From Candidatus Freyarchaeum deiterrae (GTDB taxonomy: Archaea > Asgardarchaeota > Jordiarchaeia > Jordiarchaeales > Jordiarchaeaceae), in the NCBI GenBank assembly GCA_037305845.1, contig CP147778.1:1472001-1536000 (forward strand): DNA of 64,000 nt, given 5' to 3'. Shown here piece by piece: positions 1 through 38,168 of the stretch. The translations under genes were made by a program, and so were the position numbers. Within the stretch, counting starts at the first letter, position 1, and each line of letters begins with the position of its first letter. The notes under the pieces are model-generated. The model saw nothing but the letters and a program-made list of their open reading frames with translations, was not told the origin of the DNA and did no database searches.

Positions 1-465
1 TGTTCCGATGATTAATGTGCGCTGAAATCCACAGGGAACTGATCCATCGAGATAGTTTTTTCGTAGGATGTGCAATTCGTCTATTACCTTTGCATTAAAC
101 AGGAGTGAAATTTCAATACCTATGTCTATCGCTTCTTGGGAGATGTCAAAAGGAGGTGTTTGATGCTTGCAGGTGTTCTACATGCAAGTTTCATCTATCT
201 CATATGTGCAGTTAACATCATTAAATCCTTCATATACGATAGTACGTCCTTTTTCATACTCAACTAGCATTGCTTCATCATACTTCCCCATCTCACCTAA
301 TACTGGTCTAAAATATCTCTTAACTAGAAATTCGGGTTCATCGGTTTTTAGAATTGGCTGACAGAGACAGAATAGTTTGCGATTGGTTAGAAGCTCCTGG
401 TGAATTTCAATTCCTGCCTTGAATCCTAGTTTTTCGTATTCTAGCTCCAATAGAACCGCCTCCAA
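1..465 (-). CDS. gatE: Glu-tRNA(Gln) amidotransferase subunit E, 5' part (runs off window start); interrupted by a 30-nt BHB intron at 160..189; exons 465..190 and 159..<1
   Basis: GFKAGIEIHQEL..KLFC motif; after intron removal reads CTYEIDE|TPPFDISQEAIDIG...LHILRKNYLDGSVPCGFQRT, matching GatE/GatB motifs. Start may be the TTG at 450. Confidence 0.92.
160..189 (-). other. BHB-type mRNA intron in gatE (30 nt, contains in-frame TAG)
   Basis: Minus strand GATG-AA|A-CTTGCA-loop-TGCAAG-CATC-AA|A: 4-bp helix GATG/CATC between two 3-nt bulges. Confidence 0.88.
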
Positions 466-10629: not shown

Positions 10630-11672
10630 CTATTGGGTTTTTTCTTCTTTGTGTTTTTTCCATAGTGAGGGGTAGGTTCCGGGTTCCATTAGTACTCTGT
10701 CTACTTCTACTGCGATTCCGTGATTTGAAGAGTACATTTCTTCGCTGCTCATTTTTGAGCTGCCTAAAGCTACTGCTTCATTTTTGAGTGTGAAAATAGC
10801 AACAAGGTTCCTTACACCTATTTCGCTCTCTAGCTTTACTATTCCTGGGACTGTTAGGTTGGCGCCATGGCAGATAGAGTCCACGGCTGAGTCGCGTATG
10901 AATATTTTGGGTATGTGTTCTAATGCCTTTTCCATGGGTTGTATTATGTTTCTTAAGAAGGATTCATCTCCATCTTCCTTCCAAAAATGGTAAGCATCAA
11001 TAACATCATGCAGGTTTGCAAGAGTATCTTCTTTGAAAGGCCCGGTTCGGGTTCGTCTGAGTTCTTTCATATGGGCGCCGCAGCCCAAGATTTCACCAAT
11101 ATCGTGGCAGAGCTTTCTTATGTAGGTACCCGCCTCGCAACCAACGCGAAGAAGCCCGTTTCGAGCCTCCATCTCTTTTAATTCAATATAGTATATTTCC
11201 CTAATTCTAAGTCTTCTTCTAACGGAGGAGCGGAGTGGTGGGCGTTGATATATTGGCCCTACGAGCTCATTTACAACGTTCCTGAACTTCTCTTCTGGCA
11301 CGTCGCCGTGTAGTTGAATGACGCAGACGTATTCTTTCCCCGCCGGAAGAAGAGTCTGAACCACTTTGGTTGCTGATTCCAAAGCTACAGGGAGTACCCC
11401 GGTGACTTTGGGATTTCACTACTCCTCGCAAAATGCTAGAGGAGTTCTAGTGTCCCAGAGTGACCCGCCTTTTGAATATTGAGAATTTTTTTAACCCAGC
11501 TAACTACTTCATGCGAAGTTGGGCCAGGGGGCTTATCCACATTGATTATACCATTTTTTATGTATTCTTCTATTGGGCGTTGGTTGGGTGGGGTTCCATA
11601 CGTGGGGTCTGAAGTTGCTTCGGCTTTTTCAATTAATTCTCTTTTCTTGTCACTTGGTAAAAAGTGGTCCAT
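10630..11672 (-). CDS. cbf5: H/ACA pseudouridine synthase Cbf5 (TruB family), split by a 32-nt BHB intron; exons 11672..11447 + 11414..10630 = 336 aa
   Basis: [11 protein letters not shown], spliced [25 protein letters not shown] domain. Confidence 0.95.
11415..11446 (-). other. BHB mRNA intron in cbf5 within the catalytic Asp codon
   Basis: GGGA-CACT-AG|A-ACTCCTC...GAGGAGT-AGTG-AA|A-TCCC: strict BHB. Confidence 0.95.
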
Positions 11673-27856: not shown

Positions 27857-28288
27857 TTGAGTGGTATTGCAGTTGGTGATTTCTTTAAAGAGCTATCAGC
27901 TCTTCTCGGATCGCGGGTTGAAGTTAACACCGAAATCGGAAAATCTTACAATGGTATCCTCAAAGGATTTGACAGAACCACACTCAGTATAGTATTAGCG
28001 GAAGCTAAGGATAATAAAGGAACTTATTATCACCGCATATTTATACGAGGCGAAAAGATCAATGAAATAATAAAAGCAGAGGAACCCTTTGACATGAAAG
28101 GACTTTATTTTGAACTCAGAAAAAGTTACCCCCCTGGGGAAGTAGAGTTTTTAGAAGACAGCCGAATTATACTTGTTCTAAAGAAGATAAGAGTAACCGA
28201 GGACGGGGTTGAAGGAGAGGGGCCCCTAGCAGACAGGATAAGACAGGTATATGACAAATATATTCAAGAGAAAAAACCAAAGCAGTAA
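27857..28288 (+). CDS. Lsm/Sm-like RNA-binding protein with C-terminal domain (SmAP3-like)
   Basis: Sm1 GKSYNGILKGFD..LSIVL, Sm2 IFIRG; extended C-terminus. Confidence 0.85.
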   Translation: MSGIAVGDFFKELSALLGSRVEVNTEIGKSYNGILKGFDRTTLSIVLAEAKDNKGTYYHRIFIRGEKINEIIKAEEPFDMKGLYFELRKSYPPGEVEFLEDSRIILVLKKIRVTEDGVEGEGPLADRIRQVYDKYIQEKKPKQ

Positions 28289-28389: not shown

Positions 28390-28739
28390 CTATTCTACCT
28401 TAAGTGGAAACGTGTAAATTCTACATAGAGCCACTGCTTTCCAAGGGTCCAGCAACCCCTGCTTCTGTTGATAATCTTTTCTTGCCTTTTCTTCCCTCGC
28501 TTCAATGCAACTTTTGCACCGAGGATGCCTCGGATCGATTAGCCCAGCCTGCGGCTGTGTGGCCCTTCACATGAAGCGCAGTGAAGCATTAGAACAGGCA
28601 GATTTTCACTGATTTCTATGCGAAAATACTCGTTGCCATCAAACTCATCCTTAAAATCGGGCCAAATTCCGTAAAGATTCTGAGACTCAAGAACTTCTTT
28701 TAAACGAATGAATATTTTTTCGAAACTCGTCATCTCCAT
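28390..28739 (-). CDS. small Cys-rich conserved protein (109 aa), split by a 20-nt BHB intron; exons 28739..28559 + 28538..28390
   Basis: Spliced product ...LHCASCEGPL DPRHPRCKSCIEARE...WKAVALCRIYTFPLKVE*; the unspliced frame stops inside the intron. Confidence 0.8.
28539..28558 (-). other. BHB-type mRNA intron (20 nt)
   Basis: GGCC-AC|A-CAGCC-GCA-GGCTG-GGCT-AA|T. Confidence 0.82.
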
Positions 28740-28989
28740 ACACCACTCATAATTTCTCGATACTCCTAACTTTTAAAGACAAAAAATTTCTGAGAATTAA
28801 TGGAGGAAGCTCTTTACACTTTGATCATGAGCCTTATCAATTCTTTAAGAGCTCTATCCAAATACCTCCGGTAATTTACTATTCTTGGTTTAGAATTAGT
28901 TTAATTTAAATTCTAGTAATATCTAAGATAGATTCCTCAACGTTTTCCAGATTGTAGACGATACAAAAAGCCCTTGCCGCTTTTTTAAA

Positions 28990-38025: not shown

Positions 38026-38168
38026 TGGTGCGGGGAGCGAGATTCGAACTCGCGTACTCCTACGAGACTGGATTTTATATCCTAGCTTTTGGGCTACTTT
38101 TTTGGATCTTAAGTCCAGCGCCTGTGATCTTGTCTGACCCCAATTTGACCTGTCTCGGCTATCCCCGC
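38026..38168 (-). tRNA. tRNA-Leu(TAA) with two introns (38124..38144 D-loop, 38074..38107 at 37/38)
   Basis: GCGGGGA/TCCCCGC, CTGGA-CTTAAG|A-TCCAG, variable arm, CCA; 88 nt after splicing. Confidence 0.9.

What the first reader, a model, noticed from the sequence alone, without database searches (positions are those of the whole stretch)
28390..28739. Hidden 109-aa Cys-rich gene revealed only by removing a 20-nt BHB intron
The 66-aa ORF ends ...CASCEGPHSRRLG*, while another frame continues DPRHPRCKSCIEAREEKARKDYQQKQGLLDPWKAVALCRIYTFPLKVE*. The junction is GGCC-AC|A-CAGCC-GCA-GGCTG-GGCT-AA|T. Excision of exactly 20 nt gives CxxCxGPLDPRHPRCxxC, a plausible metal-binding motif. From memory it resembles small conserved archaeal proteins of unknown function (unverified). 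The intron separates the two CxxC pairs, so unspliced mRNA would give an inactive product.
Basis: partly seen in the sequence, partly recalled or inferred. Interest (0 to 1): 0.85.

Follow-up and report, generated by a model that had tools for sequence, protein, structure and literature searches.

The report
tRNA-type intron in hidden Asgard gene
A small metal-binding protein gene of an Asgard archaeon, which databases list only as a truncated fragment, is split by a 20-base intron of the kind archaea cut out of tRNAs; relatives show it must be removed from the mRNA, and the papers I could search confirm such splicing inside a coding sequence for only one archaeal gene (cbf5).

Summary
Confirmed by comparison; splicing itself was not observed. 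The minus-strand gene carries a 20-nt insert (28558-28539) shaped as a relaxed bulge-helix-bulge (BHB) intron. Cutting at the standard sites gives C-x2-C-EGPLDPRHPR-C-x2-C, the junction that intron-free relatives encode contiguously. Eleven distinct inserts (20, 21, 22, 25 nt; all three phases; the in-frame one holds a stop) sit at the same base in related Jordarchaeia. They keep the helix, and both exons are under purifying selection. This argues against assembly error, pseudogene and frameshifting. The likely start is ATG 28733 (107 aa, not 109). The genome, probably the complete Freyarchaeum, encodes two EndA subunits and RtcB. It has about a dozen more such mRNA introns; I checked nadE, ahcY, alba and pcm against relatives. 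The protein family is unnamed and has no fold match. Outside Jordarchaeia it lies directly upstream of the DNA polymerase D large subunit (74 of 77 loci, plus divergent Asgard copies), so a PolD-linked accessory role is my best guess (about 50%). The scan already noted this intron system in this genome and in other Asgard genomes.

The parts
28559..28733 (-). Exon 1 (ATG 28733; codons 1-58 plus the first base of Leu59; holds F4-E5, the WP-x-F motif and the first CxxC). An in-frame ATG at 28739 would add two residues.
   Evidence: homologues start at MTSFE; NCBI's truncated 64-aa product starts here
28539..28558 (-). 20-nt BHB intron: 5-bp hairpin CAGCC/GGCTG with a GCA loop, 3' strand of the central helix (GGCT, 28544-28541) and AA of the second bulge. 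Its last three bases (TAA) stop the unspliced frame.
28559..28565 (-). Exon-1 half of the BHB motif: G (1-bp outer pair with C28537), GGCC (5' strand of the central helix, 28564-28561), AC (first two bases of bulge 1). Reads GGG-CCA-C in all intron-bearing copies; the four intron-free orthologues use GGC or GGT for this Gly.
28390..28538 (-). Exon 2 (DPRH, second CxxC, long helix, W and the LCRI strand; stop TAG)
   Evidence: pN 0.04-0.13 against pS 0.32-0.80 within the family
28741..28748 (-). Probable ribosome-binding site (GAGTGGTG), 7 nt before ATG 28733 but only 1 nt before ATG 28739
   Evidence: sequence; the same motif precedes the start in L116 and L117; inference
11415..11446 (-). 32-nt BHB insert in cbf5 (GHSGTL^DPKVTG), same system
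   Evidence: not compared with relatives here
160..189 (-). 30-nt BHB insert with an in-frame stop in gatE, same system
   Evidence: not compared with relatives here

Best explanation
The gene is intact and is expressed through tRNA-type mRNA splicing. Step 1 (shown in sequence): the pre-mRNA can fold into a relaxed BHB made of exon 1 (GGCC-AC) and the insert. Step 2 (inferred from known archaeal biochemistry): the two-subunit splicing endonuclease EndA cuts after the second base of each bulge and RtcB joins the exons. Step 3 (shown by homology): the joined message encodes a 107-aa protein whose four Cys form one probable Zn site; unspliced mRNA stops inside the intron and gives a 64-aa fragment with two Cys. 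History (inferred): one gain in a Jordarchaeales ancestor, length drift in the loop only, and one precise loss in genus g2. It is one of at least a dozen mRNA introns in this genome, most likely tolerated because EndA is permissive rather than kept for regulation. Protein role (inferred from gene order only, about 50%): a dispensable accessory of DNA polymerase D or of the replisome.
For: Same insertion point in 11 distinct introns of 20, 21, 22 and 25 nt from two families; the 21-nt in-frame one has an in-frame TAA. All 64 BHB pair cells are paired in 8 copies, against 14-53% for slid registers, with only G-C/G-U-type changes. One stem pair takes C-G, A-U and U-A forms among 20-nt copies. Both exons are under purifying selection. 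Four intron-free orthologues read GPLDPRH. Two EndA paralogues and RtcB are in the genome. Other BHB inserts restore Pfam or NCBIfam profiles in register: NAD synthase 136/138, PCMT 59/61, AhcY 182/184. These too are conserved in position with varying length: pcm in 11 of 11 genomes (25-32 nt), alba in 8 present and 2 absent, ahcY present in f1 and G005 and absent in g2, nadE in 2 of 10. DP2 is the next gene in 74 of 77 non-Jordarchaeia loci and after divergent homologues.
Against: Covariation is thin: one pair with two-sided change, not above the shuffles (56 of 500), and the copies are related. The outer helix is 1 bp. In Jordarchaeia the gene is not next to DP2 (G000 DP2 lies at 1,744,897-1,748,319), and most PolD-bearing Asgard and Bathyarchaeia genomes searched had no match.
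Confidence: 0.9

Rival explanations
1. Programmed ribosomal frameshifting or bypassing on unspliced mRNA joins the two frames.
For: A hairpin lies at the frame switch; cbf5 introns were once mistaken for frameshifts (PMC2738675).
Against: Relatives would need a -1, a +1 and a stop read-through at the same site (20, 22/25 and 21 nt). It would leave 6-8 extra residues between the CxxC pairs, which no intron-free family member has. No slippery run is present.
Confidence: 0.02
2. The gene is a pseudogene, or the insert is an assembly error.
For: The gene is dispensable in many lineages; one same-genus genome (G008, 97% complete) had no match.
Against: Identical in three other runs. Exon 2 keeps pN/pS of about 0.1-0.2 within the family and stays open in every copy. 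The insert keeps its pairing across two families.
Confidence: 0.02
3. The intron is spliced and is also a regulatory gate: splicing capacity (EndA/RtcB) sets the ratio of full to truncated protein, coupling this gene and others to RNA processing.
For: The intron is kept over a divergence at which synonymous sites approach saturation (pS about 0.75); every version truncates the protein between the CxxC pairs; cbf5 and other RNA-processing or translation genes carry such inserts.
Against: Lost cleanly in genus g2, and absent from the other lineages searched. Host genes are unrelated in function. Truncation is expected for any intron that is not a multiple of 3.
Confidence: 0.2
4. The insert is removed by something other than EndA/RtcB (another nuclease, or excision from DNA), or the two halves are made as separate peptides.
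For: The motif is relaxed; no Asgard EndA has been assayed (bioRxiv 10.64898/2026.10.13.758758). In G005 the insert is flanked by a 7-nt direct repeat, which could allow precise DNA deletion.
Against: The conserved positions are exactly the BHB helix and bulges. Exon 2 has no start codon before the second CxxC. The direct repeat is imperfect in the other copies, and same-family DNA without the insert was not found.
Confidence: 0.05

Closest known systems
cbf5 pre-mRNA intron of Desulfurococcales and Sulfolobales (Watanabe 2002; Yokobori 2009, PMC2738675)
   Same: Short (16-44 nt there, 20-25 nt here) ORF-less BHB intron inside a coding sequence, often with a relaxed motif, splitting a conserved codon, with gain and loss among relatives and a hetero-oligomeric EndA in the host.
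   Different: Another gene and another phylum (Asgard); one of many mRNA introns in the same genome; splicing was shown by experiment for cbf5 but not here.
BHB intron in the 5' UTR of Haloferax HVO_1309 (Schwarz 2020, PMC7714728)
   Same: An mRNA substrate of EndA.
   Different: Untranslated region there; here the reading frame depends on removal.
tRNA introns of Freyarchaeia and Atabeyarchaeia (PMC11291895; bioRxiv 10.64898/2026.10.13.758758)
   Same: Same lineage and same motif; 92-95% of tRNA genes carry introns; two-subunit EndA. The tRNA at window 38029-38168 has a 21-nt insert of the same design.
   Different: In the passages searched, both papers deal with tRNA genes only ('mRNA' does not occur in the preprint).
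Treble-clef-type and other 4-Cys zinc modules (from memory)
   Same: CxxC after a beta-hairpin, then CxxC at the start of a helix (AlphaFold model, pLDDT 89).
   Different: No Pfam, NCBIfam or PDB sequence match and no clear fold match; resemblance only.

Membership tests
Archaeal BHB (EndA-spliced) intron | 4-bp central helix formed between exon and intron | tested here: met
   GGCC/GGCU; paired in all 8 copies counted
Archaeal BHB (EndA-spliced) intron | Two 3-nt bulges on opposite strands, cut after the second base | tested here: met
   AC|A and AA|U; only this register restores GPLDPRH
Archaeal BHB (EndA-spliced) intron | Intron-side helix (h') | tested here: met
   5 bp here, 3-5 bp in relatives
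Archaeal BHB (EndA-spliced) intron | Exon-side outer helix of 2 or more pairs (strict hBHBh') | tested here: not met
   One G-C or G-U pair only; this is the relaxed form, also frequent in cbf5 introns (PMC2738675)
Archaeal BHB (EndA-spliced) intron | Host encodes a splicing endonuclease and a ligase | tested here: met
   Two PF01974 genes; PF01139 RtcB
Archaeal BHB (EndA-spliced) intron | Precise removal from RNA in vivo or cleavage by EndA in vitro | not testable with these tools
Self-splicing group I/II intron or homing-endonuclease intron | Ribozyme core or intron ORF | tested here: not met
   20 nt long; no Rfam match at this site
PolD subunit or accessory factor | Conserved genomic link to DP2/DP1 | tested here: met
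   Directly upstream of DP2 in 74 of 77 non-Jordarchaeia loci and in divergent lineages; not in Jordarchaeia
PolD subunit or accessory factor | Present wherever PolD is present | tested here: not met
   Found in 21 of 301 Asgard and 24 of 201 Bathyarchaeia-class genomes with single-protein queries; not a core subunit
PolD subunit or accessory factor | Physical binding to PolD | not testable with these tools
   Needs a pull-down; see Tried and rejected
Known zinc-finger folds | Structural match to a solved fold | tested here: inconclusive
   Best Z 3.4; no Foldseek match at E<=0.001; Atlas TM <=0.42

The most novel reading that the evidence does not exclude
Jordarchaeales (and other Asgard archaea) routinely splice many mRNAs with the tRNA endonuclease and ligase, with introns gained, inherited and precisely lost as in intron-bearing eukaryotic genes; this intron hides one member of an undescribed, PolD-linked metal-binding protein family.
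Probability: 0.75. Interest if true: 0.85.

Novelty: new variant of a known kind. Interest (0 to 1): 0.72.

Why it matters
Splicing inside an archaeal coding sequence is confirmed for cbf5 only in the papers I could search (PMC7714728, PMC2738675). Here a prokaryotic relative of eukaryotes appears to need protein-catalysed splicing for many unrelated genes. That bears on how intron-bearing genes can arise without a spliceosome and on the ancestry of tRNA-ligase-dependent mRNA splicing in eukaryotes (HAC1/XBP1; my own knowledge). It is directly testable, because metatranscriptomes from the source soil exist (PMC11291895). It also means Asgard annotations hold truncated genes: NCBI lists this one as a 64-aa hypothetical. 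Separately, the restored protein belongs to an unnamed family tied by gene order to DNA polymerase D, a lead for an accessory replication factor.

Tried and rejected
A JGI scan for the spliced junction found nothing; this is uninformative, since transcript contigs of a small gene are rare. Complex prediction of a Bathyarchaeia homologue with two DP2 fragments (1-285 and 560-1134) gave no verdict (score 0.00); it is evidence neither way and left out residues 286-559 and DP1. Pfam, NCBIfam, PDB sequence, ESM Atlas and three fold searches gave no family. No longer, fused forms were found (weak evidence). My recollection of a likeness to the N-terminal domain of archaeal secretion ATPases was not supported by any hit. 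The genome-wide BHB scan is noisy: frame-restoring hits at the exact cut exceed offset and antisense controls only about twofold (13 against 3-6; 29 against 13-19), so I count only cases that restore recognisable motifs, and the scan missed introns noted by others (rtcB, tyrS, queE). One search used a mis-registered structure (corrected) and one search had a script error (corrected). The genome-contig search pattern required a contiguous GP-x-D, so it could not show intron-bearing copies outside Jordarchaeia; the six-frame searches could, and showed none. The sigma-70 promoter scan does not apply to archaea.

Full report
Setting. The window comes from a single-contig genome of 3,576,204 bp. 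Its class relatives are named Jordarchaeia or Jordarchaeales and near-identical proteins are labelled Freyarchaeota. The size matches the complete 3.58-Mbp Freyarchaeum genome of PMC11291895; that identity is my inference. The gene lies on the minus strand between a B3/4-domain gene and a convergent Lsm gene, upstream of the L22-S3-L29 ribosomal cluster.

Observation. The 66-aa ORF, the second frame and the junction are as described. Many excisions restore a frame, but among 20-nt excisions only 28558-28539, the cut after the second base of each bulge, gives GPLDPRH. The fold has a 4-bp central helix (GGCC/GGCU), bulges ACA and AAU, a 5-bp intron stem and a 1-bp outer pair, so it is a relaxed BHB. 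A shuffled insert at this site gives such a motif in 12 of 200,000 trials. Three other runs reproduce all 350 nt. The start is probably ATG 28733 (107 aa): homologues begin at MTSFE, the upstream ATG is replaced in relatives, and the spacing to the purine-rich motif fits.

Comparison. Ten of 11 genomes of the class have the gene. All five copies from the window's genus and G005 from the second family carry an insert at the same base; the four genomes of genus g2 have none and read GPLDPRH. With metagenome copies there are 11 distinct introns of 20, 21, 22 and 25 nt. They cover all three phases, and the 21-nt one has an in-frame TAA, so every unspliced version is truncated (61-79 aa). No single recoding event can explain this. 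All 64 cells of the eight BHB pairs are paired in eight copies, against 14-53% when the register is slid. Among ungapped 20-nt copies the fifth stem pair is C-G, A-U or U-A, with one mismatch; this does not beat the shuffle control, so covariation is suggestive only. Exon 2 is under purifying selection (pN 0.04-0.13, pS 0.32-0.80 within the family). The exon codons in the helix are GGG-CCA in every intron-bearing copy, but in 11 of 77 intron-free loci outside Jordarchaeia and none of the four g2 genes; kin are not independent. In the protein tree the Jordarchaeia clade (99/98) splits into f1 (all with intron) and a branch in which G005 (intron) is sister to g2 (none), with moderate support (87/90 and 82/85). 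One gain and one precise loss is the simplest reading, since the G005 and f1 introns share their stem; two gains are not excluded.

The system. The genome has two EndA genes and RtcB. An (alpha-beta)2 enzyme is typical of Asgard genomes (10.64898/2026.10.13.758758) and in crenarchaea is linked to relaxed motifs (PMC2738675). My genome scan returned 29-39 frame-disrupting BHB candidates, about twice the control rate. About a dozen restore recognisable motifs: an HD protein, alba, gatE, cbf5, this gene, nadE, a radical SAM gene, ahcY (two, plus a 191-nt third insert), pcm, a TIGR00375 gene and a LeuC-family gene. Profile positions continue in register across the cut for nadE (136/138), pcm (59/61) and ahcY (182/184). 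In relatives the pcm intron is in 11 of 11 genomes (25-32 nt), alba in 8 with 2 intron-free, one ahcY intron has the same distribution as this gene's (f1 and G005, not g2), and nadE is in 2 of 10. Earlier notes of this scan describe the same system here and in other Asgard genomes; I used them as leads, not support.

The protein. The profile finds 28 cluster representatives, none longer than 185 aa. In 53 homologues F4, E5, W24, P25, F27, three Cys and R93 are invariant and the fourth Cys, G-P, D, R-H nearly so. AlphaFold gives a confident alpha/beta domain (pLDDT 89) with one CxxC after a hairpin and the other at the start of a helix, a plausible single Zn site (inferred). No family or fold match was found. 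The family is patchy. Outside Jordarchaeia the next gene is the PolD large subunit DP2 in 74 of 77 loci, mostly Bathyarchaeia and so not independent. The same holds for divergent homologues in different contexts: after radB, divergent from DP1, in Odinarchaeia-type L022, and others. In Jordarchaeia the link is broken. I read it as a dispensable PolD or replisome accessory at about 50%; this rests on gene order alone.

Mechanism. Shown: the motif, its conservation, the need to remove exactly this insert, and the presence of the enzymes. Inferred: cutting by EndA and joining by RtcB; a Zn site; neutral persistence rather than regulation.

Literature. PMC7714728 states that cbf5 was the only earlier mRNA example and adds a 5' UTR case in Haloferax. 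PMC2738675 notes unconfirmed predictions in other genes. Ten searches found no paper on Asgard mRNA introns or on this protein family; the library lacks most subscription journals.

Verdict. A real intron in a real gene (0.9). The chemistry is a known kind; its use in many coding sequences of an Asgard lineage is a new variant. Interest 0.72.

Noticed in passing
L006:1479-1505 (-) (G005); G000:C1:1877011-1877072 (-): In G005 the intron ends in GGGCCAC, an exact repeat of the 7 exon bases before it; the 56-nt ahcY intron likewise repeats CCGGAA. With a palindromic 4-mer, a short duplication around a hairpin creates a BHB at once. A possible route of intron birth, but alba, nadE and pcm do not show it.
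   Followed up: partly
window 38029-38168 (-): tRNA gene of 140 nt missed by ARAGORN; it has a 21-nt BHB insert in the D-arm region and further extra sequence.
   Followed up: partly
window 11415-11446 (-) and 160-189 (-): BHB inserts in cbf5 (32 nt, splitting the catalytic Asp codon) and gatE (30 nt, in-frame stop).
   Followed up: partly
G000:C1:987065, 1125569, 1619887, 1863944, 1876927, 1877066, 1883212, 2244134, 2285374, 2636190: Further BHB inserts (29-56 nt) in HD-domain, alba, nadE, radical SAM, ahcY, OB-fold, pcm, TIGR00375 and LeuC-family genes; alba, nadE, ahcY and pcm were checked in relatives.
   Followed up: partly
G000:C1 0.98-2.64 Mb: The motif-restoring mRNA introns all fall in this part of the 3.58-Mb chromosome, where many core genes lie; not tested statistically.
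   Followed up: no
L041-L115: Conserved Bathyarchaeia block: Elf1 zinc ribbon, GGGP synthase (PcrB), this gene, DP2, small HTH gene, often near cdc6 and DP1. L018, L108 and L115 keep the block without DP2.
   Followed up: partly
window 27857-28288 (+): Lsm protein with an Lsm_C domain (SmAP3 type), convergent with this gene in all Jordarchaeia loci examined.
   Followed up: no
G008: A 97% complete same-genus genome had no match to the gene with either query: loss or assembly gap.
   Followed up: no
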